Origin: Escherichia coli
Lineage (GTDB): Bacteria; Pseudomonadota; Gammaproteobacteria; Enterobacterales; Enterobacteriaceae
Assembly: GCF_024502345.1 (NCBI RefSeq)
Contig: NZ_JALDNN010000001.1
Length of the DNA stretch: 64,000 nucleotides
Strand: one strand, 5' to 3'
Part shown: piece after piece, positions 1 to 15,407 of the stretch
Layout of the letters: every line of letters starts with the position of its first letter
Position numbering within the stretch: position 1 is the stretch's first letter
The notes under the pieces: model-generated
The model's input: only the letters and a program-made list of their open reading frames with translations
Databases searched by the model: none
What the model was told of the DNA's origin: nothing
Program-made: the position numbers and the translations under genes

Positions 1-672
1 GACCGTTCCGTGGCAAAGCAAAAGTTCAAAATCACCAACTGGCCCACCTACAATAAAGCCCTCATCAACCGTGGCTCCATAACTTTCTGGCTGGATGATG
101 AAGCTATTCAGGCCTGGTATGAGTCAGCAACACCTTCTTCACGAGGCAGACCTCAGCGCTATTCTGACCTTGCCATCACGACTGTGCTGGTCATTAAACG
201 CGTATTCAGGCTGACCCTGCGCGCTGCGCAGGGCTTTATTGATTCCATTTTTTCTCTGATGAACGTTCCGCTACGCTGCCCGGATTACAGCTGTGTCAGC
301 AGGCGGGCAAAGTCGGTTAATGTCAGTTTCAAAACGCCCACCCGGGGTGAAATCGCACACCTGGTAATTGATTCCACCGGGCTGAAGGTCTTCGGTGAAG
401 GCGAGTGGAAAGTCAAAAAGCATGGCCAGGAACGCCGCCGTATCTGGCGTAAGCTGCATCTCGCCGTTGACAGTAAAACACATGAAATCATCTGCGCTGA
501 CCTGTCGCTGAACAACGTTACGGACTCAGAGGCCTTCCCCGGGTTAATCCGGCAAACCCACCGGAAAATCAGGTCAGCCGCCGCCGATGGCGCTTACGAT
601 ACCCGGCTATGTCACGATGAACTGCGGCGTAAGAAAATCAGCGCGCTTATCCCTCCCCGAAAAGGTGCGGGT
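1..672 (+). mobile_element. IS903-like (IS5 family) insertion sequence remnant; transposase N-terminal ~221 aa only, 3' part missing
   Basis: ORF 10..846 begins MAKQKFKITNWPTYNKALINRGS...RLCHDELRRKKISALIPPRKGAG, which I recognise as the IS903 transposase. The match ends near nt 672; downstream frame is read-through antisense to the GTPase gene. The element start lies at or beyond the window edge. Confidence 0.75.
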
Positions 673-1094
673 TGCATCACACCGTTCCAGAACTGCTCGT
701 CCACCGACAGCGCACGGTCATCAGCTTTGATGACCCACAGCACCAGGTCAAGCTCTGGCAGCATACGCCGGTACAGGGCGCGGTATTCATGGTCCCGTTG
801 TCCGTTCTCTCCCACGCCCGGTAAATCAACAATCACCAGACTGTGACGACCACTGCGCAGCCGGAAGCGCAGTATGTCGCGGGTGCAGGCGTTCACATCA
901 CTGACGGCGGAGACTTCCCCCCGAAAGAGTTCGTTACAGAGCGACGACTTACCGGCACCACTCTTGCCCATGATGCCAATCACCGGCTCGTAGTGGGTCA
1001 GATTCTGAATACGTTCAAGAATAAGCTGGCGAAGCGTATCGGGAAGCGACGCCAGCGGTTTTTCCAGGGCCTGAAGGCCATCAGTTTTATTCAT
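672..1094 (-). pseudogene. C-terminally truncated YfjP/YeeP-family GTPase
   Basis: ORF 612..1094 (-) has a P-loop GIMGKSGAGKSS and DLPGVGE motif typical of prophage YfjP/YkfA/YeeP GTPases. Only ~140 aa of an expected ~290 remain before the IS903 junction. Confidence 0.6.
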
Positions 1095-1726
1095 ACAGGG
1101 TTCTCAGCGTGAAAAACAAAAATCCCCGCGCTCCGGTCAGGGAGGCGGGGGATTCACGGAGATAATATCTATCTGAATTTATTTAGAATATAAGCAGGCT
1201 CATGTAACTGTAGCAGTGTCAACTTTACATCACAGCTCATGTTGGCTGGTGGTATTTTGCCAATAGTAGACATTTACGCCTAGGTTTAGATATCGAAATT
1301 AGTACACCAATATAGATACAGCAAAGAGGGAACTGATTTGTCTGCGCGAGACTAGAACCGTTGCCCCCTGTGGTTCGATGGATTGCAGGAAAATCATTTC
1401 CGGTGCTGAAGAGAGCCTCCGATACAACCTGAGAATATTTTAAGAACATCAAAATGAATGACGTAATTTACTCAAAGGCGATTGCCTAATATGTCATGAT
1501 ATTAGTAGCATTTAATTGCGTGAAAGTTTGTATATTCTTTTGAATTTATCTCAAAGCTAAAACCTCGTCAAAAATACACAAAAGGGTTTTGAGAAACAAG
1601 AGCCTGATGCTGAATCTGCTACAGAGCTGGGTTCTGTTCTGTTAAACTTGCGGTTAAAAATTTCCAAGAAAACCTAGGATATGACATGAGTTCACTGCAC
1701 ACCAGTAGTAGCAGCAGGGCGGTCAC

Positions 1727-4540
1727 ATGCCAATGGAGAGCTGTACGCAAATGAACGCCGTAGAAATTGAACAAGCCATCACGGATCTTGCAGAGCAACC
1801 CTTTGATCCTATAGAGTTTCCTTATGCTTTTCTTGAAGCCTTTGGTAACAAGGAAACGACTGTCAAACGCTTGCGCGCCGGTGCATCAAACAAATCCGAC
1901 TTGGGCGGTGTTCTCCAGAGCAATAATATTCACATTCTGACCTGCGAAGCAGGGACTGTGACTCAGATGTTGGCCGCGCTCAAGGCTAGCCCTGCGACAA
2001 CTAAAGCCAAGGCGAAGTTCATCCTGGCTACAGATGGCAAAGATTTCGAAGCTGAAGACCTCGTTAGCGGTCAGACTGTCGCTTGCGCCTTTAAAGACTT
2101 CCCAGATCACTTCGGCTTTTTCTTGCCATTAGCAGGCATTAGCACAGTTCGTCAGATTTGTGAGAACTCCTTTGACATTCGGGCCACTAGCCGGCTGAAT
2201 CGTCTGTATGTCGAGTTGTTGAAAGATAACCCTACCTGGGGGACGGCGGAGCGACGTCATGACATGAACAAATTCATGACTCGGCTGATCTTTTGTTTTT
2301 TCGCTGAGGATACTGACATTTTCGTGGGTAAGGGACGCTTTACTGAAACCGTTGCGCAGATGAGTACAAGAGATTCGTCGAATACGCATGAAGTTATCGC
2401 TACCTTGTTTCGTGCCATGAACACCAGTAACAAAGATAGAGCCGCCGCTGGCATCCCGCGCTGGGCCAATGAGTTTCCTTATGTCAACGGACGCTTGTTC
2501 TCTGGGAGTAATGATGTACCACTGTTCAGTAAGATTGCACGGTCTTATTTGCTCCATGTGGGTAGCCTTGACTGGACCAAGATTAATCCGGATATCTTTG
2601 GCTCGATGATTCAGGCAATTGCCGAAGACGAAGAACGCGGAGAGCTGGGGATGCATTACACCAGCGTACCCAACATCTTAAAAGTTTTGAATCCACTATT
2701 TCTGGACGACCTGCGCGCAAAGCTGGATGAGGCGGGTGACAATCCGCGTATGTTGCTTAACCTGCGTAAGCGCATTTCCCACATCCGTGTGTTCGACCCA
2801 GCGTGCGGTTCTGGTAACTTTTTGGTTATCGCGTACAAGGAAATGCGTGCCATTGAGGCCGAAATCAACAAGCGGCGTAATGAGCCAGATCGCGCCTCGG
2901 ATATCCCACTTACCAACTTTCGCGGGATTGAACTAAGAGATTTCCCGGCAGAGATCGCCCGCCTTGCGCTTGTTATCGCTGAGTACCAATGTGATGTACT
3001 GTACCGTGGGCTGCGGTTGGCCTTGGCTGAGCTTCTTCCGTTACGCAACGAAAATTGGATTACCTGTGGCAATGCACTACGGCTCGACTGGTTAAGAATT
3101 TGCCCGCCGACAGGAACAGGTGTGAAATTACATGGCGATGACTTGTTTGGATCTCCGCTTGATCAGGCAGAGATCGACTTTGAGAATGAAGGCGGAGAGA
3201 CATACATTTGCGGTAACCCACCATACCTTGGTTCAAAGTGGCAGACGGATGAACATAAAGCTGATCTTGGCACAATCTTTTCTGGTCGCGTGAAAAATTG
3301 GAAATCGCTCGATTATGTTGCTGGCTGGTTCCTGAAAGCCGCTGACTATGGTAGCCAGACAAGTTCCCAGGCTGCTTTTGTTGCCACTAATTCAATCAGC
3401 CAAGGGCAGCAAGTGTCGATTCTGTGGCCGGAAATATTCAAGGCAGGACAAGAGATTAGTTTCGCTTACACGAGCTTTAAGTGGTCGAACCTCGCTACTC
3501 ACAACGCCGGGGTCACAGTTGTTATCATCGGAATTTCTAACTGTGTAGGAAAGTCGCGACGCCTCTTTTCGGCTGGAGGAGACAATGGTGCGACGACGTG
3601 TCGTGAGGTGGAGCGCATCAACGCCTATTTGATCGCTGGCCCTAACATCATTGTGGAGGGGGACAGTTGTCCAGCCGACAGTCTTGCAACGATGCAGTTC
3701 GGTAACCACCCGTACTATGGTGCATCACTGATCTTTTCGAGATCTGAAGCACAGCAGATGATGTCTGTCGATCCGCGTACGGCGCGTTTTATTCGCCCAC
3801 TATATGGCTCCCAAGAGTTCATTTCCGCTGTGCCACGAGCCTGTCTATGGATTAACGACGATGAGGCTGACGAAGCGGGGACGATTCCTCTGATAGCTGA
3901 GCGTATGAGCGCCGTAGCAAGTGCTAGACGTGCAAAAAAACAAGACAAGGCAGCCCAGAAACTGGCTAAGACTCCATATCGCTTTCGCGACCAGCAGACA
4001 TCTACGAATCATATTCTTGTGGTTCCTCGAGTCAGTTCAGAGAACCGTCCTTGCTTGCCGGTTGGATTACTTGACTCTGACTCTATCGTTCAAGATCAAG
4101 CATTCGCCCTTTACGACGCTCCTCTCTGGAACCTCGCCATCATAGCGAGTCGCCTGCATCTAGTTTGGATCGCCACGGTTTGTGGAAAGTTAGAGACACG
4201 CTACCGCTATTCAAACACCCTCGGCTGGAATACTTTCCCGCTCCCAACACTCACTGAGAAAAATAAGGCAGACCTCACGCGCTGTGCAGAGGATATTCTT
4301 CTGACTAGGGAGCATCACTTCCCTGCAACCATTGCAGACCTTTATGACCCCGAGAAGATGCCAGACGACCTGCGTATTGTGCACGAGCGTAATGACGAAG
4401 TGCTTGAGCGTATTTACATTGGGCGCCGCTTTAAGAATGACACAGAGCGGCTTGAGAAGCTGTTTGACCTTTATACTAAGATGGCCGCTTCAACTGCATC
4501 GGGCAAAAGCAATAAACGTAAAGTGGGAACCAATGCATGA
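1727..4540 (+). CDS. MmeI-family (type IIG/IIL-like) N6-adenine DNA methyltransferase with target-recognition region; N-terminal nuclease motif apparently degenerate
   Basis: 937-aa ORF. SAM motif I FDPACGSGNFLV, catalytic motif IV GNPPY, and MmeI/PglX hallmarks FPYVNGRLF, HYTSVPNILKVLNPLFLDDL, FVATNSISQGQQVSILWP, RYRYSNTLGWNTFP, LYDPEKMP. Alternative start at 1751 (MNAVEIEQ). Confidence 0.85.
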   Translation: MPMESCTQMNAVEIEQAITDLAEQPFDPIEFPYAFLEAFGNKETTVKRLRAGASNKSDLGGVLQSNNIHILTCEAGTVTQMLAALKASPATTKAKAKFILATDGKDFEAEDLVSGQTVACAFKDFPDHFGFFLPLAGISTVRQICENSFDIRATSRLNRLYVELLKDNPTWGTAERRHDMNKFMTRLIFCFFAEDTDIFVGKGRFTETVAQMSTRDSSNTHEVIATLFRAMNTSNKDRAAAGIPRWANEFPYVNGRLFSGSNDVPLFSKIARSYLLHVGSLDWTKINPDIFGSMIQAIAEDEERGELGMHYTSVPNILKVLNPLFLDDLRAKLDEAGDNPRMLLNLRKRISHIRVFDPACGSGNFLVIAYKEMRAIEAEINKRRNEPDRASDIPLTNFRGIELRDFPAEIARLALVIAEYQCDVLYRGLRLALAELLPLRNENWITCGNALRLDWLRICPPTGTGVKLHGDDLFGSPLDQAEIDFENEGGETYICGNPPYLGSKWQTDEHKADLGTIFSGRVKNWKSLDYVAGWFLKAADYGSQTSSQAAFVATNSISQGQQVSILWPEIFKAGQEISFAYTSFKWSNLATHNAGVTVVIIGISNCVGKSRRLFSAGGDNGATTCREVERINAYLIAGPNIIVEGDSCPADSLATMQFGNHPYYGASLIFSRSEAQQMMSVDPRTARFIRPLYGSQEFISAVPRACLWINDDEADEAGTIPLIAERMSAVASARRAKKQDKAAQKLAKTPYRFRDQQTSTNHILVVPRVSSENRPCLPVGLLDSDSIVQDQAFALYDAPLWNLAIIASRLHLVWIATVCGKLETRYRYSNTLGWNTFPLPTLTEKNKADLTRCAEDILLTREHHFPATIADLYDPEKMPDDLRIVHERNDEVLERIYIGRRFKNDTERLEKLFDLYTKMAASTASGKSNKRKVGTNA

Positions 4541-6582
4541 GCAACAAGATTAGATCTGTACCGTCAGTTTCTGTTACCTACTCACGCAACGGAGCATCGA
4601 CCAAGGCTAATTCTCTTGGGATGCGTCCTATGCAAGAAAGGGCTTATGAGAAGCGCGGAGAACAATATCTTCTCATAAAGTCGCCGCCCGCCTCTGGCAA
4701 GAGTCGTGCGCTGATGTTCGTCGCACTCGATAAACTCGCAAACCAGGGGATCAAACAGGCAATCATTGTCGTGCCGGAAAAATCTATCGGCGCGAGCTTC
4801 AACGATGAACCGCTATCGCAGTTTGGATTCTGGGCTGATTGGCATGTTGAACCTAAGTGGAATCTGTGCAACGCCCCCGGTAACGACAACGGCGGCAAGG
4901 TAAAATCTTTCGGCTCTTTTCTTGAAAGTAGCGACAAGGTGCTTGTTTGTACACACGCAACCTTTCGCTTCGCGGTCGATGCCTACGGTGTAGAGGCGTT
5001 TGACGATCGCCTGATCGCCGTCGATGAATTTCACCATGTGTCCGCTAACCCGGATAACAAGCTTGGTCAGCATCTGGGACAGTTCATTGAGCGTGACAAG
5101 ACGCACATCGTGGCCATGACCGGCTCCTACTTCCGGGGAGATGCGGAAGCCGTTTTGGCTCCTCAGGATGAGTCTAGGTTCGATACCGTCACCTACACCT
5201 ACTACGAACAACTCAACGGTTACGAATACCTCAAACAGCTTGATATCGGATACTTCTTTTATAGTGGATCATACATTGATGACATCCTCAATGTCCTCGA
5301 TCCTGACAAGAAAACGATTATCCATATTCCCAACGTCAATTCGCGCGAGAGTACGAAGGATAAAATTAAGGAGGTGGAGCACATTCTGAGCGAGCTTGGC
5401 GATTGGCAAGGTGCGGATCCTACGACTGGTTTTCAGCTAGTCAAGCGCCCCGATGGCCATGTGTTGCGTATTGCTGACCTGGTGGACCCAGCCAGTCAAG
5501 GCAAGATTCAGGAAAGCCTCCGAGCTCCAGAAATGAAGACAGACCGTGACTATGTAGACATCATTATTGCACTTGGTATGGCGAAGGAAGGTTTCGACTG
5601 GATCTGGTGCGAACATGCGCTGACTGTTGGCTACCGTGCCAGCCTGACTGAGATCGTGCAGATTATCGGTCGCGCTACTCGCGACGCGCCGGGTAAAACC
5701 CGCGCGAGATTTACTAACTTGATCGCCGAGCCCGACGCTGTAGAGGGCGCAGTAACTGAGGCAGTCAACGATACCTTGAAAGCTATCGCGGCGAGCCTGT
5801 TGATGGAACAGGTACTGGCTCCGCGCTTCGAGTTCAAGCCCAAGAATCCTGAAATCGGTCCGACTCCAGGCTTTGATTATGGTGATGGAGGATATGACCC
5901 GGATAGCTGCAATTTTGGTGTTAATGAGCAGACAGGGACGTATCAAATCGAGATTAAGGGACTTGCCGAGCCTAGGAGCAAAGAGGCGGCACGTATCTGC
6001 CAGGAAGATTTAAACGAAGTGATCGCGGCCTTTGTGCAGGATAAGCCCGCCATCGAACGAGGCCTGTTCGATGAAGAGCTGATCCCTGAAGAGTTAACAC
6101 AGGTTCGTATGGGTAAGATCATCAAAGAAAAGTATCCTGAACTTGATGCTGAAGATCAGGAGGCTGTACGTCAGCATGCTATCGCCGCCCTTAACCTCAC
6201 GCAGCAGGCCAAGCGTCTTGCTACCGGTGAAAACGATGGGACGCTCAATACTGCTCTTATTGACGGAGTGCGTCGCTTTGCAATGGATGTGCGCGATTTA
6301 GACATAGACCTTATCGACCGCATCAATCCCTTTGGTGAAGCCTACGCTATCCTTGCTAAGACGATGAGTGAAGACAGTTTGAAGCAGGTCGCGGCGGCCA
6401 TCTCGGCCAAGCGTACTTCGATCACGCCTGAAGATGCCAAGGTGATCGCCAAGCGTGCCGCTGAATTCAAACGTGAACGTGGGCGCCTCCCATCGTTAAC
6501 TTCGCTGGATGCTTGGGAAAAACACCTTGCTGAAGGTGCAGCCGCGTTTATGCGTTTTAGGGCGGAGGGACGTTATGAGTAA
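4537..6582 (+). CDS. SF2 DExH-box helicase with ~280-aa C-terminal extension of unknown function
   Basis: 681-aa ORF. Walker A PPASGKS, motif II VDEFHH, motif III MTGSY, motif VI QIIGRATR. Start ATG overlaps the methyltransferase stop (ATGA at 4537-4540). Confidence 0.8.
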   Translation: MSNKIRSVPSVSVTYSRNGASTKANSLGMRPMQERAYEKRGEQYLLIKSPPASGKSRALMFVALDKLANQGIKQAIIVVPEKSIGASFNDEPLSQFGFWADWHVEPKWNLCNAPGNDNGGKVKSFGSFLESSDKVLVCTHATFRFAVDAYGVEAFDDRLIAVDEFHHVSANPDNKLGQHLGQFIERDKTHIVAMTGSYFRGDAEAVLAPQDESRFDTVTYTYYEQLNGYEYLKQLDIGYFFYSGSYIDDILNVLDPDKKTIIHIPNVNSRESTKDKIKEVEHILSELGDWQGADPTTGFQLVKRPDGHVLRIADLVDPASQGKIQESLRAPEMKTDRDYVDIIIALGMAKEGFDWIWCEHALTVGYRASLTEIVQIIGRATRDAPGKTRARFTNLIAEPDAVEGAVTEAVNDTLKAIAASLLMEQVLAPRFEFKPKNPEIGPTPGFDYGDGGYDPDSCNFGVNEQTGTYQIEIKGLAEPRSKEAARICQEDLNEVIAAFVQDKPAIERGLFDEELIPEELTQVRMGKIIKEKYPELDAEDQEAVRQHAIAALNLTQQAKRLATGENDGTLNTALIDGVRRFAMDVRDLDIDLIDRINPFGEAYAILAKTMSEDSLKQVAAAISAKRTSITPEDAKVIAKRAAEFKRERGRLPSLTSLDAWEKHLAEGAAAFMRFRAEGRYE

Positions 6583-7753
6583 TTCTGATTTAGACGATTT
6601 GGCGGCAGAACTTGCTGAATTTGCACCACCGGAGAAGAAAAAAGGACGTCCAGCCAGCGAGGAACGCATCATCGCAGGTTTTGAGGAAATCCAGCGCTTC
6701 GCTGACCAACATGGACGTGCGCCGCAACACGGCGAAGAGCGTGAGATCTTTGAGCGCCTCTATGCAGTGCGGCTCGACCGGCTACGCAGTCTCCCAGACT
6801 GCCGTGCCTTGCTAGAGCCGCTGGATCATCAAGGCTTATTGGCTGGAGGGGGTGATGTAGCGGAGTCAGCGGACGAAATTATCGATATCGATAATTTGGC
6901 TGCCGAACTGACGGATGTTTCCAGCGAGGATGATATCACAGTCTTGCGTCATGTTCGTGCTAGCGCCGAAAAGCGTGCTGTACAAGGGATCGCGGATCGC
7001 AAGCCGTGCGAGGATTTTGATACATTCAAACCGCTATTTGAACAGGTGCGCAGTGATCTAAGTTCAGGGTTAAGAGTGACCCGACCTTTTGGACAGTATG
7101 CAACGATTGAAGTGGGCCATTGGTTCATCCTGGATGGTCAAACGGCTTATGTGGCTGAGGAAGGTGAAGAGTTCGATTCTCCACAGGGGAAGAAAGATGC
7201 TCGGCTGCGTGTCATTTATTCGAATGGTACAGAAAGTAACCTGCTTCGGCTGTCATTAGTTCGTGCTTTGTATAAAGACGAAACAGCACGTCGAATTACC
7301 GATCCAGACATGGGGCCTTTATTCAGCGATGCTCTAGAAGAGAGCGATCTAGAAAGTGGCACCATTTATGTATTGCGTTCGCTATCAGATAACCCTTATG
7401 TGGCCGAACATCGTGATGTTATTCACAAGATTGGTGTGACTGGCGGCAAGGTCGAGACTCGTATTGCTAATGCTGAACACGATTCCACCTATCTGTTGGC
7501 GAAGGTAGAGGTGGTCGCTTCATACAAACTCGCAGGTATCAACCGCACCCGGATGGAAAACCTGTTTCACAGGTTGTTTGCACCCGCAAGGCTTAACATT
7601 ACCATTAACGACCGTTTCGGCCATCCAGTACAGCCCGAGGAATGGTTTCTCGTTCCGTTATTCGTTATCGATGAGGCTGTTGCACGTATTAAGGATGGTA
7701 GCATCATTGGGTATGTTTATGACCCCATGTCTGCGAAACTGGTGAAGGCATAG
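6575..7753 (+). CDS. T5orf172/MUG113 (GIY-YIG superfamily) domain protein, candidate nuclease, with acidic N-terminal domain of unknown function
   Basis: C-terminal GTIYVLRS...HKIGVTGGKVETRIANAEH...PEEWFLVPL fits the T5orf172 GIY-YIG-like pattern. GGAGGGA Shine-Dalgarno 6 nt upstream of ATG 6575; start overlaps the helicase stop (taa 6580-6582). The ORF track's upstream ATG at 6509 lacks an RBS. Confidence 0.65.
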   Translation: MSNSDLDDLAAELAEFAPPEKKKGRPASEERIIAGFEEIQRFADQHGRAPQHGEEREIFERLYAVRLDRLRSLPDCRALLEPLDHQGLLAGGGDVAESADEIIDIDNLAAELTDVSSEDDITVLRHVRASAEKRAVQGIADRKPCEDFDTFKPLFEQVRSDLSSGLRVTRPFGQYATIEVGHWFILDGQTAYVAEEGEEFDSPQGKKDARLRVIYSNGTESNLLRLSLVRALYKDETARRITDPDMGPLFSDALEESDLESGTIYVLRSLSDNPYVAEHRDVIHKIGVTGGKVETRIANAEHDSTYLLAKVEVVASYKLAGINRTRMENLFHRLFAPARLNITINDRFGHPVQPEEWFLVPLFVIDEAVARIKDGSIIGYVYDPMSAKLVKA

Positions 7754-7779: not shown

Positions 7780-7812
7780 CTGTTCTGAGGTGAGTATATC
7801 ACCTCAGAACAG
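7780..7812 (+). terminator. Perfect 14-bp-stem hairpin just downstream of the three-gene cassette; no U-tract
   Basis: ctgttctgaggtga / gtata / tcacctcagaacag read directly. Lack of a T-run makes intrinsic-terminator function uncertain; could be an RNA stability or protein-binding element. Confidence 0.3.
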
Positions 7813-7868
7813 CACAGGAATAAAAGATACTGATTTGAATGTACCTATACTTTGCGATGTGAGGATCA

Positions 7869-8660
7869 ATGAATAGTAACCTGACCAAGATATGTTACCG
7901 TGGTGAGACTGGTGAAAGTGATCTAAGAACGTTGATACTTGGTGAGATTCTATATATCTCACTACGAGATGTTTTAATCACGCTGAATAAAGAAAATAGA
8001 GAAATCAACGCTGATTACACAGTAAAATCGATGGCTGGAATAATCAGGGCGCAATTACAGGCTCTTGACCCTGATGAGTATATTACTACAGATGCTGAAA
8101 ATGGTGTTTTTGAAGGTCAGAAAGAGATCTTCGTCACCCAGCCAGGTTTGTATCGAGTCATGTCAAGTGACCGAAGCGCTGCCGGTAAGCGCTTTCAAAA
8201 ATGGTTATTTCATGAAGTCATACCATCATTGACTAAGCATGGTGTATACCCGCCTCCGCCAGAAGCGAAAGGTTCAGCCCTTGCACAAATGGCTGAGATA
8301 CTTGCTCAAAATTCGCGAGCACTTGCTGACGCAATCCATAAACACGAAAAACTGGCCGAAGATGTCTCACAGGTTAAAGGTAAAGTTGCCAACGTTGAAA
8401 GCCGTCTGGAACTGTTAGAATCAGGTCCTTCCACTGTAACTGAAGATATGCATACTCTTGATAGCCGTCTCGCTTATTTGGACATGAGCATGGAAGAAAA
8501 GCATACCACCGAGACATTAGCCTGGTGCGAGAATATTTCTGTTCAAAATAACAGGAAGGTGATTCGCAAGGACTGTAGGGAGAATTCGCTCTTTACAACG
8601 CAGACTATCGACGAAGCAATCGCTATCATGACTGAAAGTGGAAAAATCACACCAAATTGA
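7869..8660 (+). CDS. Bro-N (KilA-N/antirepressor-like) domain protein with coiled-coil C-terminus
   Basis: 263-aa ORF. N-terminal ...DLRTLILGEILYISLRDVLITL...GLYRVMSSDRSAAGKRFQKWLFHEVIPSLTKHGVY resembles the Bro-N fold pattern. GAGGAT RBS upstream. Confidence 0.55.
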   Translation: MNSNLTKICYRGETGESDLRTLILGEILYISLRDVLITLNKENREINADYTVKSMAGIIRAQLQALDPDEYITTDAENGVFEGQKEIFVTQPGLYRVMSSDRSAAGKRFQKWLFHEVIPSLTKHGVYPPPPEAKGSALAQMAEILAQNSRALADAIHKHEKLAEDVSQVKGKVANVESRLELLESGPSTVTEDMHTLDSRLAYLDMSMEEKHTTETLAWCENISVQNNRKVIRKDCRENSLFTTQTIDEAIAIMTESGKITPN

Positions 8661-8716
8661 AGATCCTGGGGTTCAGATTATCTGCTGGCTATCTTATTGA
8701 GCTCTGACGTAAAATA

Positions 8717-8739
8717 GGCCTTCCCACAAAGAGAAGGCC
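8717..8739 (-). terminator. Intrinsic terminator hairpin for the minus-strand YfjJ-like gene, between convergent genes
   Basis: ggccttc / 9-nt loop / gaaggcc, followed on the minus strand by tatttt. Confidence 0.45.
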
Positions 8740-8748
8740 ATTGCCGAC

Positions 8749-9375
8749 TTACAGATCGATTTGGCTACAGCCGAAGTTACGGTCTCCTTCACCAAACACT
8801 TTGCTTTCGACTTTGGTGAGGTAATCCAGTCGGGTTAACAGCGCTTGGTAGTTATGCTGGAAGTCAGCATTATTGGTATCCAGCACGTACTTACAGTTGT
8901 CAGGAAAATGGACCAGACCAGGGTGATCATCCAGTTTCAGTCCCAGGGCGCTGTACCACGCTCCCGTAATCATCCCTCTCAGGTTATCGTGCTGATCGTA
9001 ATCCCCGAGGTGGTAGTAAGCGTCTTTGTTGAACAACAGGCAAATGTGGTAGTGGCATTTACCTGACTCAGAATACTCTTTCGCCCATATAATAAATAAA
9101 GGGCAACGGTAGATGCGTTTACCTTCACGCTCCTTACGGGTACGGTCAGCCTCCAGTTTAGCTCTGAGGGAATCACGCATTCGGGATATCACCCCTGGTT
9201 CAAGATTAGGGAAACAGCAGATATTGTCTCCGTTATCGACTATCTTCGGATAATGCAGATCGACACGTACCGCCGTTAACCTGGGGTAACGGTTAGTCAA
9301 ATAACATAATAATTTTTTAATCTTGATCTGATATTCGAGGATATGTACTCCATGAGTACCTTGATATGTTTTCAT
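8749..9375 (-). CDS. YfjJ/YagK-family (inovirus Gp2-like) prophage protein
   Basis: 208-aa ORF resembling the YagK/YfjJ family of CP4-type islands; in the island-backbone position expected from K-12 CP4-57. Confidence 0.65.
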   Translation of the reverse strand: MKTYQGTHGVHILEYQIKIKKLLCYLTNRYPRLTAVRVDLHYPKIVDNGDNICCFPNLEPGVISRMRDSLRAKLEADRTRKEREGKRIYRCPLFIIWAKEYSESGKCHYHICLLFNKDAYYHLGDYDQHDNLRGMITGAWYSALGLKLDDHPGLVHFPDNCKYVLDTNNADFQHNYQALLTRLDYLTKVESKVFGEGDRNFGCSQIDL

Positions 9376-11458: not shown

Positions 11459-11879
11459 AGCTGATTACCTCAAATCGAAGTGCTCTGGATGATGTGAGAT
11501 TAGCTTTAAGGCAGCCAATCTAAAATGTATGTGCCAAAAAAACTTTTTTTTACGAACGGGAAATAAATATCCTATTGAAATTTAATGATTTTATTTTTTT
11601 TCTGTCGGGTCCATCAGAACGGTGTGAATTCAGTTACAGCCTTCCGGTCCGGTAATGGGCCAGTTATATGTTGAGTGGCTGCGCTTCGATGACTTCTGTT
11701 TCAGTGGGCTGGTCTATCTCCGACGTGCTGTGGCAGGTAGCGGTTCAGCAGTAGCCATTATTCGTTCTGCTCCGTCAGTACCGCACCCAGCAGCCGCAAG
11801 ATGCTCTCTTCATTGGGAAGATACCTACCACTGTCAACGCCAAGATTGTTGGCCGTTTCGTCCGCATCCCCTATTGGTC

Positions 11880-12570
11880 ATTAATGTTGTCCGCTTTCCG
11901 CCGTTTCATCTCTTTGTTCAGGCGCTCCAGCGTGTTTGTGGAGTGGGTTTTTCACTTGGTGTGCTTTCGGGAGGCCGAAGGACGCCAGCACGTCTGCCTC
12001 TGCTTCGTCCATCACCCCGGTGACCGCCGGGTTGCTTTTCTCCCATTGACCGGCAACCTTGCACAGGTGGCATGGGCGCTTTTCTCGTCGGTCTGCACGA
12101 ACACCTGTTGCAGCGCCGCACGGACCACCGACTGGTTTGCACGGCTGACGCGGCTCAGCACGTTGCGCATGAAGTGGACCCGGCAGCGCTGCCAGCTGGC
12201 GGAGAACATCTGCCTATCGCCGCCTTCAGGCTCAGCAGGAAGGTCAGCCAGGATGCCGTTTATCCATGCTTCCTGGATAACCGCGTTGAGCGCCTTCTCA
12301 GACAATCTGTGGGCCTCCAGGAAGGGCGGGAAGTACGTCCCTTTAAGCAGCTTCGGAATACGCAGGTCCACAGCGTGCCGAGCTGGCGGGGACTGACGGT
12401 CACGATAGCCGTTGTGGTAGGTTTCGCGCTCATCGCTGCGCTAGTGGGCTCCGCGTTGATGTGCTGAGTGACATCTGCTTCCATAATGCAGTTGAGCATA
12501 AATTCGGTGAGTTCACGCAGAAAATCCTCGCCGCCGAGTAGCATCAGGGTGTTGCTGAATGTCATGCTGT
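11880..12570 (-). pseudogene. IS256-family (Mutator-type) transposase remnant, frameshifted with internal deletion
   Basis: Minus-strand fragments: 12260..12565 (MTFSNTLMLLGGEDFLRELTEFMLNCIMEADVTQ, typical N-terminus) and 12012..12371 (...QRCRVHFMRNVLSRV motif) in different frames; the DDE core between them is absent. Confidence 0.55.
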
Positions 12571-13620: not shown

Positions 13621-14862
13621 TCAAACAACAAGTTTTAATGCACCGGCACTAGATTCTACCATGCTTCCTTTATCTGCTCTTTTAACAAAATCAGCCCACC
13701 ATTGCATCATCGGCCTACGTTGCTCAAGATAATCACTGCGGTTATAAGCGCGACGTACCTCATTTTTGTCTACATGAGCAAGTGCGGCTTCAATGACATC
13801 AGGAGGAAATCCTTGCTCATTGAGGGCTGTACTGGCGATAGAACGCAAACCATGTGAAACCAGCACTCCCCCTAAACCGGCACGCTTGAGTGCAGCATTC
13901 ACGGTTTGACTGTTCATCGGCTGAGTGGGCTTAATGCGGCTTGGAAAAATAAAATCTCGGCCACCACTGAGCGGCTTCATCATTTCCAGAATAGCCAGAG
14001 CCCCATCAGATAATGGAACGGTATGGTCCCGGTTCATTTTCATTCGGGCTGCTGGAATTTTCCATTCGTTAGCATCAAAATCGATCTCATTCCACCGAGC
14101 TTCTGCGGCTTCTGCGGGGCGGGTGATGGTGAGAAGTTGCCACATGAACAGACACCGCGTAGACAGGCTGATACTGGCCGTACGCATAGTTTGCATCAAC
14201 TGAGGCAACTGATCCGGACGAATACTGGGCATGTTCTTTTTCTGAGGTTTCTCGAAGGCTTTGCCAATATTAACACTGGGAACTGCATCAATCAGGCCCG
14301 TGTTTTGGGCATAAATCATGACTTCATTGATCCGTTGGCAAAGACGGCGGACAGTTTCCAGTGCTCCTCGGGCCTGAACGGGTTGAACGGCTTGAACCAG
14401 TGTATGGGCTTTAATATCTGTAACGCTTACGTTGCCAATTGCGGGAAATATATCTCTTTCAAGCGAACGCCAGATATCATCAGCATAGTCCTCGGTTACA
14501 CTGGCTTTCTTCACATTCCACCAACGCTCGGCAACTAACAAGAAAGTGTTGGTTTTGGCCTCCTGAGAATTTCTTATCTGTTCTTTTTGGTATTCCTGAG
14601 GATCGATTCCTTTTGCCAGTAATACTTTGGATTCAGCTCTGAGCTTACGAGCATCGGAAAGCGAGACAGCAGGATAGGAACCGAAGCTCTGTTTAGTTCG
14701 CTGTTTTGTCAGAGGTCGGTAATAACGGAATTGCCAGAGCTTACTGCCACTGGATTTGATTAGCAGCGTCAGTCCGTCACCATCATACAACTGATAATCG
14801 GCATCTTTAGATTTGGCTGCTTTGATTTCCGTATCCGTTAACGGCTTGGTTTTTCTTGCCAC
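13621..14862 (-). CDS. intA: P4-type tyrosine integrase of a CP4-57-like island (GTG start)
   Basis: 413-aa ORF beginning (M)ARKTKPLTDTEIKAAKSKDADYQLYDGDGLTLLIKSSGSKLWQFRYY, immediately downstream of ssrA on the same strand. Confidence 0.9.
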   Translation of the reverse strand: MARKTKPLTDTEIKAAKSKDADYQLYDGDGLTLLIKSSGSKLWQFRYYRPLTKQRTKQSFGSYPAVSLSDARKLRAESKVLLAKGIDPQEYQKEQIRNSQEAKTNTFLLVAERWWNVKKASVTEDYADDIWRSLERDIFPAIGNVSVTDIKAHTLVQAVQPVQARGALETVRRLCQRINEVMIYAQNTGLIDAVPSVNIGKAFEKPQKKNMPSIRPDQLPQLMQTMRTASISLSTRCLFMWQLLTITRPAEAAEARWNEIDFDANEWKIPAARMKMNRDHTVPLSDGALAILEMMKPLSGGRDFIFPSRIKPTQPMNSQTVNAALKRAGLGGVLVSHGLRSIASTALNEQGFPPDVIEAALAHVDKNEVRRAYNRSDYLEQRRPMMQWWADFVKRADKGSMVESSAGALKLVV

Positions 14863-15044: not shown

Positions 15045-15407
15045 TGGTGGAGCTGGCGGGAGTTGAACCCGCGTCCGAAATTCCTACATCCTCGGTACTA
15101 CATGCTTAGTCAGTCTTTACATTCGCTTGCCAGCTGCGGACGGACACGCCACTAACAAACTAGCCTGATTAAGTTTTAACGCTTCAACCCCAGGCAGGGC
15201 TTCCACGCGATCTCTTTTGGGTTTGACCTCTCTTGATCCCCGTCCTAAGAGCGGAGGCTAGGGAGAGAGGGCTCTAAGCAGGTTATTAAGCTGCTAAAGC
15301 GTAGTTTTCGTCGTTTGCGACTATTTTTTGCGGCTTTTTACGAGGCCAACCGCCCCTCGGCATGCACCTTGGGTTTCGCAAATCCCGTCGAATCCAGAAT
15401 CAGCCCC
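15045..15407 (-). ncRNA. ssrA: tmRNA (SsrA); its 3' end is the island integration site
   Basis: Reverse complement reads GGGGCTGATTCTGGATTCGACGGG...GGGTTCAACTCCCGCCAGCTCCACCA, with the tag-coding region and tRNA-like ends. Confidence 0.95.

What the first reader, a model, noticed from the sequence alone, without database searches (positions are those of the whole stretch)
7869..8660. Bro-N domain gene immediately downstream of the cassette
Bro-N/KilA-N proteins are usually phage antirepressors, but this one is co-directional with the cassette and follows it by ~115 bp, in an AT-rich stretch of different composition. It could be an unrelated island gene, or a regulator or sensor associated with the defence module.
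Basis: partly seen in the sequence, partly recalled or inferred. Interest (0 to 1): 0.4.

Follow-up and report, generated by a model that had tools for sequence, protein, structure and literature searches.

The report
Island Bro-N gene, not cassette part
The gene is real and encodes a Bro-N DNA-binding-type protein, but it is a self-contained mobile-element gene on the edge of a slot where many different phage-defence systems get inserted, not a fourth part of the restriction-like cassette beside it.

Summary

The cassette is the known three-gene DnmA/YeeA-YeeB-YeeC unit: an MmeI-like methyltransferase, a DEAD helicase and a T5orf172/GIY-YIG protein.

The four-gene arrangement is not conserved:
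- About 100 complete E. coli genomes carry the cassette, and only 3 have an intact Bro-N gene after it. The rest show at least five other downstream junctions.
- Cassettes in Enterobacter, Pseudomonas and Herbaspirillum have no Bro-N gene.
- None of 22 Bro-N loci from other species has the cassette.

The Bro-N family travels as a single-gene module with its own roughly 50-bp leader. It occurs as Vibrio cholerae integron cassettes, at accessory positions in prophages, and as the last backbone gene of integrase islands.

In those islands it borders a cargo slot holding many different defence systems: Shosta, Gabija, PD-Lambda-4, Drt4, DarTG, type I and type III-like restriction-modification (RM), and here YeeABC.

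Most likely it is an autonomous antirepressor-like island gene at a defence hotspot boundary. Its biochemical role is untested.

The parts
7869..8660 (+). Bro-N family gene, 263 aa. It has a Bro-N/APSES-like domain (aa ~1-125), one long helix (aa 137-184, probable coiled coil) and a small alpha/beta C-terminal domain (aa ~195-263) found only in this family.
   Evidence: dN/dS 0.04-0.09
7819..7868 (+). Leader that travels with the gene in every genomic context. It contains a conserved -10-like box (TATACT in most relatives, GATACT here at 7826-7831) and the Shine-Dalgarno GAGGA at 7861-7865. It is probably the gene's own promoter and 5'UTR; this is inferred, not shown.
   Evidence: Homology of Bro-N-only loci begins at window 7819 or 7851-7856. 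Alignment of upstream regions from 14 loci. The generic sigma-70 scan found no full promoter here.
7780..7812 (+). Perfect 14-bp stem with a 5-nt loop and no T-run, in the 115-bp gap. It is present only in the E. coli-type cassette/Bro-N junction. It is absent from cassettes of other taxa and from Bro-N genes in other contexts.
8717..8739 (-). GC-rich hairpin followed by a T-run on the - strand, lying between the convergent Bro-N and yagK genes. It looks like a terminator for yagK and may also stop Bro-N transcripts.
1727..4540 (+). Context: MmeI-like type IIG/IIL methyltransferase of the DnmA/YeeA type, first gene of the cargo cassette.
   Evidence: literature
4537..6582 (+). Context: DEAD/ResIII helicase of the YeeB type.
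6575..7753 (+). Context: T5orf172/MUG113 (GIY-YIG-like) protein of the YeeC type. RefSeq relatives start at the position equivalent to 6575, not at the longest-ORF start 6509.
8749..9375 (-). Context: yagK/yfjJ-type gene (inovirus Gp2 family), the first island backbone gene, convergent with Bro-N.
13621..14862 (-). Context: P4-type tyrosine integrase of the island.
15045..15407 (-). Context: tmRNA gene (ssrA), the island's integration site.

Best explanation
The gene is an autonomous single-gene module of mobile genetic elements.

Shown:
- It encodes a three-part protein: an N-terminal Bro-N domain with the APSES-type DNA-binding fold, a ~48-residue helix, and a small C-terminal domain found only in this family.
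- In this window it is the outermost backbone gene of an ssrA-integrated, P4-integrase-type island (int ... yagM-yagL-yagK-BroN).
- It borders the island's cargo slot. Here that slot holds the three-gene DnmA/YeeA-YeeB-YeeC restriction-like cassette.
- The adjacency therefore comes from island architecture and not from a shared function.
- A stretch inside the gene has been exchanged by recombination between two otherwise near-identical islands.

Inferred:
- The protein is a dimeric, antirepressor-like DNA- or protein-binding regulator. It acts in the element's dealings with phages or other mobile elements.
- It is transcribed from its own short leader.
- Its conserved sequence serves as a homologous-recombination anchor through which different cargo cassettes are swapped in.
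For: Independence from the cassette:
- In 5,426 complete E. coli genomes, about 100 carry the cassette and only 3 have an intact Bro-N gene behind it.
- The other downstream junctions fall at window 7753/7758, 7818, 7831, 7889 and 7964-7967. They lead into IS26 plus resistance genes, IS remnants, or an AAA protein of 1650 aa.
- YeeC-type proteins form at least 8000 clusters across Gamma- and Betaproteobacteria, against 119 clusters for the Bro-N family.
- Cassettes in Enterobacter, P. aeruginosa and Herbaspirillum are followed by other genes, with no Bro-N homologue within 7 kb.
- Published work treats the cassette as a three-gene unit (PMC2731913, PMC9973331).
- None of 22 Bro-N loci from other species has YeeA, YeeB or YeeC within 10 kb.

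Autonomy:
- A 45%-identical homologue is a single-gene cassette in five different V. cholerae integron-like arrays.
- Homologues of 43-44% identity sit between nin-type genes and lysis genes of P22-like prophages.
- In Escherichia phage LLS the homologue lies next to attP.
- In Shewanella and other marine bacteria it lies between housekeeping genes.
- The ~50 bp upstream, with a TATACT box and the Shine-Dalgarno, move with the gene.

Backbone and boundary position:
- The order Int-x-YagK/Gp2-DUF3987-AlpA-~600aa-BroN | cargo recurs in E. coli, Providencia and another Enterobacterales genome.
- The order Int..YagM-YagL-YagK-BroN | cargo occurs in the window, two E. coli genomes and Citrobacter.
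- In Klebsiella pasteurii the slot is empty: GTPase | BroN | DUF4431 | integrase.

Cargo found directly upstream, on the same strand:
- YeeABC.
- N6_N4 methyltransferase plus ResIII helicase.
- Helicase, DUF4391 and type III RM.
- Type I RM plus an FtsK-like ATPase.
- ShosA/ShosT.
- GajA/GajB.
- Retron-type RT plus PD-Lambda-4 A/B.
- Drt4.
- DarT-NADAR.
- Methyltransferase, helicase and deaminase.

Other support:
- GC content matches the backbone and not the cassette.
- The window and CP027579 are almost identical except for 15-19% divergence confined to 8100-8700 inside Bro-N, which indicates a recombination tract.
- Purifying selection acts on the gene, with dN/dS 0.04-0.09.
Against: - No experiment bears on function. 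'Antirepressor' is only an annotation carried by the PHROG families.
- The KilAC/ANT C-terminal domain of classical Bro-N antirepressors was not detected, and the C-terminal domain has no known relative.
- No full sigma-70 promoter was found by the generic scan. In this window the -10-like box is weakened to GATACT, so read-through from the cassette cannot be excluded.
- About half of the E. coli cassettes retain the first 21-99 bp of Bro-N. The cassette/Bro-N junction was therefore ancestral in that lineage, which is compatible with a former link.
- Defence systems sit upstream and on the same strand very consistently, including in distant genera without the same backbone. That pattern could mean more than hotspot architecture.
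Confidence: 0.7

Rival explanations
1. The Bro-N protein is a dedicated fourth component (regulator, sensor or specificity factor) of the MmeI-like/helicase/GIY-YIG cassette. It would echo the known Bro-N + T5orf172 domain fusions of phage homing-endonuclease-like proteins.
For: - It is on the same strand, 115 bp downstream.
- Bro-N and T5orf172 domains are known to co-occur in single viral proteins (PMC8096241).
- The junction is retained as a 5' remnant in many E. coli genomes.
Against: - Only 3 of about 100 E. coli cassettes keep an intact gene, and cassettes persist with it truncated or absent.
- It is absent next to cassettes in other genera.
- There is no cassette near any of 22 Bro-N loci from other species.
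- Family sizes differ by roughly 70-fold.
- The literature finds only YeeB and YeeC as conserved neighbours.
- The composition differs from the cassette.
- There is no sequence similarity between YeeC and the Bro-N protein.
Confidence: 0.04
2. The family is itself a defence-island gene. It would be either a stand-alone anti-phage (for example abortive-infection) protein or a general regulator or sensor that can serve many different neighbouring defence systems.
For: - At least 10 different known or likely defence systems lie immediately upstream on the same strand, in several genera.
- Defence-type genes lie on the other side too: TIR, patatin, caspase-like and PLD-helicase-DUF3427.
- Homologues are single-gene cassettes in V. 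cholerae chromosomal integrons. Integron cassettes have been reported to be rich in defence genes (bioRxiv 10.1101/2024.07.02.601686).
- Homologues occupy moron-type positions in prophages.
Against: - There is no PADLOC match.
- No effector-type domain is present. The protein has only a DNA-binding-type fold, a helix and a 70-aa domain.
- Defence islands and mobile-element backbones overlap heavily, so association alone is weak evidence.
- Several contexts have no defence genes nearby: GNAT/CdiA pathogenicity island, LacI/EAL, tRNA synthetase.
- The paper on integron defence cassettes does not mention such a protein.
Confidence: 0.18
3. It is a classical prophage-type antirepressor that binds and inactivates a CI-like repressor of a resident or incoming phage, or of the island itself.
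For: - PHROG matches are to families annotated anti-repressor Ant.
- The architecture (Bro-N, linker, small C-terminal domain) resembles that of many annotated antirepressors.
- Homologues occur in temperate phages.
Against: - No KilAC/ANT domain was detected.
- The gene is not located in an immunity region or next to a repressor in any context examined.
- None of the matched families was checked for experimental support.
- This reading overlaps with the inferred part of the best explanation and is not exclusive of it.
Confidence: 0.25
4. It is the toxin of a Bro-Xre type toxin-antitoxin pair.
For: Bro-Xre modules have been described (PMC11638225, seen).
Against: - There is no Xre/HTH partner gene adjacent in the window. 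The neighbours are YeeC upstream and convergent yagK downstream.
- No such partner appears in the integron, prophage or island contexts examined.
Confidence: 0.02

Closest known systems
Bro-N domain proteins (Pfam PF02498), i.e. phage/prophage 'antirepressor (Ant)-like' proteins and baculovirus BRO proteins
   Same: - The N-terminal domain matches the Pfam model above threshold.
- It has the APSES/KilA-N-type fold.
- The gene sits on mobile elements.
- PHROG matches are to families annotated anti-repressor.
   Different: - The C-terminal half (coiled coil plus a ~70-aa domain with a conserved W-C motif) is confined to a small family of 56 representatives among 1.84 billion proteins.
- It is not the KilAC/ANT domain.
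- The gene is not in an immunity region.
DnmA/YeeA-YeeB-YeeC three-gene cluster (MmeI-like methyltransferase lacking its own nuclease, DEAD helicase, T5orf172/GIY-YIG protein)
   Same: This is what the neighbouring 'cassette' is. The gene order, overlaps and domains match the published description.
   Different: The Bro-N gene is not part of that unit. It is not among the conserved neighbours in the literature or in the loci examined here.
Conserved genes flanking defence hotspots in mobile elements (for example the P2/P4 hotspots, and integration hotspot #9 at the tmRNA locus of E. coli, PMC10121019)
   Same: - A conserved gene borders a slot that holds a different defence system in each genome.
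- The island sits at ssrA.
- There are recombination signs in the flanking gene.
   Different: - The backbone here is CP4-57/CP4-6-like (yagK/yfjJ, yagL, yagM, AlpA, DUF3987), not P2 or P4.
- I did not find the Bro-N gene described as a hotspot flank in the papers I could search.
Bro-N + T5orf172 fusion proteins of phages (homing-endonuclease-like; relatives of ICP1 proteins and PLE CapR)
   Same: Here a Bro-N gene lies next to a T5orf172 gene, and these are the two domains that are fused in those proteins.
   Different: - They are separate genes with no conserved linkage.
- The T5orf172 protein belongs to the YeeC family, which occurs almost always without Bro-N.

Membership tests
Bro-N domain family (PF02498) | Sequence match to the Pfam model above the gathering score | tested here: met
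   31.4 bits against a cutoff of 25.6, E 2.9e-7, aa 20-119
Bro-N domain family (PF02498) | KilA-N/APSES-type DNA-binding fold | tested here: met
Bro-N domain family (PF02498) | DNA binding | not testable with these tools
   Needs EMSA or ChIP.
Classical phage antirepressor (Bro-N/AntA N-domain + KilAC/ANT C-domain, acting on a CI-type repressor) | KilAC/ANT (PF03374) or another known antirepressor C-terminal domain | tested here: not met
   Pfam scan of aa 131-263 and 189-263 at E up to 10 gave only weak coiled-coil-type hits. No PDB relatives were found by sequence or fold.
Classical phage antirepressor (Bro-N/AntA N-domain + KilAC/ANT C-domain, acting on a CI-type repressor) | Similarity to phage protein families annotated as antirepressor | tested here: met
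   phrog_130 at E 2.8e-15 and five further 'anti-repressor' PHROGs. This is annotation only, not tested function.
Classical phage antirepressor (Bro-N/AntA N-domain + KilAC/ANT C-domain, acting on a CI-type repressor) | Binds and inactivates a repressor | not testable with these tools
   Needs interaction and induction assays.
DnmA/YeeA-YeeB-YeeC system | The gene is a conserved neighbour of the methyltransferase, helicase and T5orf172 genes across genomes | tested here: not met
   - Intact in 3 of about 100 E. coli genomes with the cassette.
- Absent in Enterobacter, Pseudomonas and Herbaspirillum loci.
- 0 of 22 Bro-N loci from other species have the cassette.
- The literature lists only three genes.
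Known anti-phage defence protein families (PADLOC-DB 2.0) | Match to any defence-system protein model | tested here: not met
   0 families at E <= 0.01.
Bro-Xre toxin-antitoxin modules | Adjacent Xre-type HTH partner gene | tested here: not met
   The neighbours are YeeC-type (upstream) and yagK (downstream, convergent). No such partner was seen in other contexts.
Backbone/flank gene of a defence hotspot in integrase-type genomic islands | Conserved position next to integrase-proximal backbone genes, with different cargo on the other side in different genomes | tested here: met
   Two backbone types in at least 5 genera, and at least 10 different cargo sets, most with strong PADLOC or Pfam defence matches.

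The most novel reading that the evidence does not exclude
This small Bro-N/coiled-coil/unique-C-domain family may be a so far unrecognised defence-associated module. One possibility is a stand-alone anti-phage or anti-mobile-element protein that can travel as a single integron cassette. The other is a portable regulator or sensor placed at the 3' end of many unrelated defence systems (Shosta, Gabija, PD-Lambda-4, Drt4, DarTG, types I, III and IIG-like RM). Either way its gene would mark and perhaps organise a previously undescribed defence hotspot in CP4-57/CP4-6-type islands.
Probability: 0.18. Interest if true: 0.55.

Novelty: new member of a known kind. Interest (0 to 1): 0.27.

Why it matters
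For this finding, the result prevents a mis-annotation. The restriction-like system here is the known three-gene YeeABC-type unit, and the Bro-N gene should not be counted as a fourth component.

More generally, the gene is a handy landmark. In several Enterobacterales genera the DNA just upstream of it is a slot that holds a different anti-phage system in each genome. Scanning upstream of this family could therefore turn up new defence genes, such as the uncharacterised 888-aa TPR protein, the 170-aa protein and the methyltransferase/helicase/deaminase sets seen here.

Whether the Bro-N protein itself contributes to defence or to island biology is an open question that could be tested cheaply.

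Tried and rejected
- Sequence search of the PDB with the protein and with the family profile gave only coiled-coil noise.
- Pfam on the C-terminal half alone gave nothing meaningful.
- A profile search of 1.84 billion representatives with the C-terminal half found only 56 proteins. Almost all have the same ~260-aa architecture or are fragments of it. There are no alternative domain combinations to give a functional hint.
- The idea that YeeC's undescribed N-terminal region is itself Bro-N-like, or related to the neighbour, was rejected: there is no similarity.
- The idea that the 14-bp-stem hairpin is the cassette's own terminator was rejected. It is missing from cassettes in other taxa and from one E. 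coli junction type.
- The generic promoter scan found no sigma-70 promoter in front of the gene. The -10-like box is proposed only from conservation.
- Literature searches for Bro-N in defence systems, defence hotspots, COG3617 or PD-Lambda-4 contexts found nothing on this family.
- The phage collection holds only one full-length relative, Escherichia phage LLS.

Full report
**Observation**

A GAGGA ribosome-binding site sits just upstream. Pfam recognises a Bro-N domain at aa 20-119 above the curated threshold, 31.4 bits against 25.6. Six PHROG families annotated 'anti-repressor' also match.

The gene before it ends at 7753, so the gap is 115 bp, and both genes are on the + strand. Bro-N has GC 0.428 and GC3 0.379. 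The three cassette genes have GC 0.50-0.52. The island backbone genes yagL and yagM have GC 0.36-0.38. The AT-rich observation therefore holds, and the composition groups the gene with the backbone.

The gene is not a chance ORF. It has 119 homologous protein clusters. Against ten orthologues, dN/dS is 0.04-0.09, and the N-terminal domain is more constrained than the C-terminal half.

**The surroundings**

Upstream lie three genes:
- an MmeI-like methyltransferase with all five MmeI Pfam domains (1727-4540);
- a DEAD/ResIII helicase (4537-6582);
- a T5orf172/MUG113 (GIY-YIG-like) protein (RefSeq-style start 6575, stop 7753).

This is the DnmA/YeeA-YeeB-YeeC arrangement. Morgan et al. [quoted passage not shown] A 2023 mBio paper analysed its neighbourhoods and again found only YeeB and YeeC as conserved neighbours (PMC2731913, PMC9973331).

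Downstream, on the opposite strand, are yagK/yfjJ (8749-9375), a yagL-like resolvase/HTH gene, a yagM-like gene and a P4-type integrase (13621-14862). The tmRNA gene follows at 15045-15407. The region is therefore a CP4-57/CP4-6-type island integrated at ssrA.

**Is the four-gene arrangement conserved?**

It is not.

*E. coli.* Among 5,426 complete genomes, the closest relative (CP027579) has the same arrangement, and two further genomes share it. The cassette itself is present in about 100 genomes, but the homology to the window stops at different points:
- at 7753/7758, followed by IS26 and resistance genes, or by a 1650-aa AAA protein;
- at 7818;
- at 7831;
- at 7889;
- at 7964-7967, the largest group, where IS remnants follow.

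The last three classes keep only the first 0-99 bp of the Bro-N ORF. In that lineage the junction was ancestral, and the cassette has been retained after the Bro-N gene was destroyed.

In the other direction, 77 genomes carry a full-length Bro-N homologue and only 3 of them have the cassette.

*Other taxa.* YeeC-type proteins form at least 8000 clusters, 80-90% identical across Gamma- and Betaproteobacteria. The cassettes I inspected in Enterobacter, P. aeruginosa and Herbaspirillum are followed by DUF932 or by unrelated hypothetical proteins. No Bro-N homologue lies within 7 kb.

A scan of one genome per species found 22 loci with a relative of the Bro-N protein. None has YeeA, YeeB or YeeC within 10 kb.

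**What the Bro-N gene travels with**

In loci where only the Bro-N gene is shared with the window, the homology starts at 7819 or at 7851-7856. An alignment of 14 upstream regions shows that about 50 bp move with the gene. This leader holds a conserved TATACT box (GATACT here, 7826-7831) and the TGAGGA ribosome-binding site.

The perfect 14-bp-stem hairpin at 7780-7812 belongs to neither module. It occurs only in the E. coli cassette/Bro-N junction type.

Full-length relatives occur in several other settings:
- as single-gene cassettes in five different V. cholerae arrays with the typical superintegron make-up of small co-directional genes, acetyltransferases and toxin-antitoxin pairs;
- between nin-type genes and the lysis genes of P22-like prophages in Pectobacterium and Yersinia;
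- beside attP in the temperate Escherichia phage LLS, the only full-length relative in the phage collection;
- between housekeeping genes in Shewanella and other marine bacteria.

The gene therefore behaves as a self-contained unit.

**A recurring position at a cargo boundary**

In Enterobacterales islands the gene is the last backbone gene before variable cargo. Two backbone types show this:
- Int-x-YagK/Gp2-DUF3987-AlpA-~600aa-BroN, in E. coli at yafT, in Providencia at ssrA, and in an unclassified Enterobacterales genome;
- Int...YagM-YagL-YagK-BroN, in the window, in two E. coli genomes and in Citrobacter.

In Klebsiella pasteurii the slot is empty, reading GTPase | BroN | DUF4431 | integrase.

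The cargo directly upstream, on the same strand, differs from genome to genome:

| Cargo upstream of Bro-N | Calls |
|---|---|
| YeeABC-type cassette | this window |
| N6_N4 methyltransferase plus ResIII helicase | 11, 18, 52 |
| Helicase, DUF4391 and type III RM (followed by only a fragment of Bro-N) | 28 |
| Type I RM plus an FtsK-like ATPase | 44 |
| ShosA/ShosT | 94 |
| GajA/GajB plus a TPR protein | 51, 94 |
| Retron-type RT plus PD-Lambda-4 A/B | 94 |

The same holds for distant relatives in other orders:
- Drt4 upstream, with a patatin-like gene on the other side;
- DarT-NADAR upstream, with a caspase-like gene on the other side;
- a methyltransferase/helicase/deaminase set upstream, with a PLD-helicase-DUF3427 gene on the other side.

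Some contexts have no defence genes: a GNAT gene and CdiA remnants in a pathogenicity island, which is the commonest E. coli context; LacI/EAL; and IS elements.

**Recombination inside the gene**

The window and CP027579 are essentially identical from 1700 to 6400 and again from 8700 onward. They differ by 15-19% between 8100 and 8700, the C-terminal two-thirds of the Bro-N gene, and mostly at synonymous sites. This looks like a recombination tract. It fits a gene shared by many islands that serves as a homology anchor.

**The protein**

The AlphaFold2 model (pLDDT 82) has three parts:
- an alpha/beta domain at aa 1-125;
- one helix at aa 137-184;
- a small alpha/beta domain at aa 195-263.

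The helix matches only coiled coils. The C-terminal domain matches nothing in Pfam or the PDB. A profile of the C-terminal half finds only 56 representatives among 1.84 billion proteins, and nearly all have the same ~260-aa architecture. PADLOC has no model for it.

**Interpretation**

The adjacency to the cassette is best explained by island architecture. The Bro-N gene is an autonomous mobile-element gene at the edge of a cargo slot, and in this island that slot received a YeeABC-type cassette.

That it acts as a dimeric antirepressor-like regulator is inferred. The inference rests on the fold, the coiled coil and the annotations of related phage families. Nothing here tests it. The absence of a KilAC/ANT domain, and of any nearby repressor gene, argues against filing it as a classical antirepressor.

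A dedicated role in the YeeABC cassette is very unlikely. A Bro-Xre toxin role is unlikely because there is no partner gene.

One reading remains open. The family may have a general defence-related function of its own, given the striking run of defence systems beside it and its occurrence as integron cassettes. I put this at roughly one in five. Backbone genes of defence-carrying islands show the same association without having a defence role.

**Verdict**

The gene is a new member of a known kind, namely Bro-N proteins of mobile elements. Interest is low to moderate. It comes mainly from the gene's use as a marker of a defence hotspot and from the uncharacterised C-terminal domain.

Noticed in passing
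window 8100-8700 (compared with L001 = CP027579): There is a sharp mosaic. The two islands are about 100% identical on both sides, but differ by 15-19% in the C-terminal two-thirds of the Bro-N gene, mostly at synonymous sites. A milder divergent patch covers 6500-7600 in the YeeC-type gene.
   Followed up: partly
window 7780-7812; L004 14274-14306; L005: The perfect 14-bp hairpin between the cassette and Bro-N has its 5-nt loop inverted between genomes (GTATA here, TATAC in CP158441). It has no T-run. It belongs to neither the cassette module nor the Bro-N module. Its origin is unknown.
   Followed up: partly
window 1727-4540 compared with L004, L011, L056-L061: The MmeI-like methyltransferase is much more divergent between genomes (69-80% aa identity) than the helicase and the T5orf172 protein of the same cassettes (87-97%). 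This is what would be expected if the target-recognition part is being exchanged. I did not map where the differences lie.
   Followed up: no
window 6509-6582: The longest ORF of the T5orf172 gene starts at 6509 and overlaps the helicase gene by 74 bp. RefSeq relatives are annotated from the position equivalent to 6575, an 8-bp overlap giving 392 aa.
   Followed up: partly
window 11750-12500: A GC-rich patch (0.59-0.60) with overlapping ORFs on both strands lies inside the otherwise AT-rich island backbone. The corresponding place in CP027579 carries a frameshifted IS256-family transposase.
   Followed up: no
window 10-846: A DDE transposase ORF (DDE_Tnp_1_5/DDE_Tnp_1) sits at the very start of the window, upstream of the cassette. 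Relatives have IS66 remnants at that place, and a yeeP/yfjP-type GTPase gene further left.
   Followed up: no
L036 3939-9886 (Enterobacterales bacterium CwR94): A retron-type reverse transcriptase and a full-length PD-Lambda-4 A/B pair lie directly upstream of the Bro-N homologue. In L035 an uncharacterised 888-aa TPR protein lies between Gabija and Bro-N. In L008 a 170-aa unknown protein lies between ShosTA and Bro-N. These unknowns are candidates for accessory or new defence genes.
   Followed up: no
L020 5704-6669 (V. cholerae integron-like array): A T5orf172/MUG113 single-gene cassette lies four cassettes away from the Bro-like cassette in the same array. This is probably coincidental, but these are the two domains that are fused in some phage proteins.
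   Followed up: no
L038 4720-9976 (Pseudoalteromonas sp. B95): A SAM methyltransferase, a ResIII helicase fused to an S24 peptidase domain, and a cytidine-deaminase/zinc-ribbon protein end 10 bp before the Bro-N homologue. This looks like an undescribed defence-type operon.
   Followed up: no
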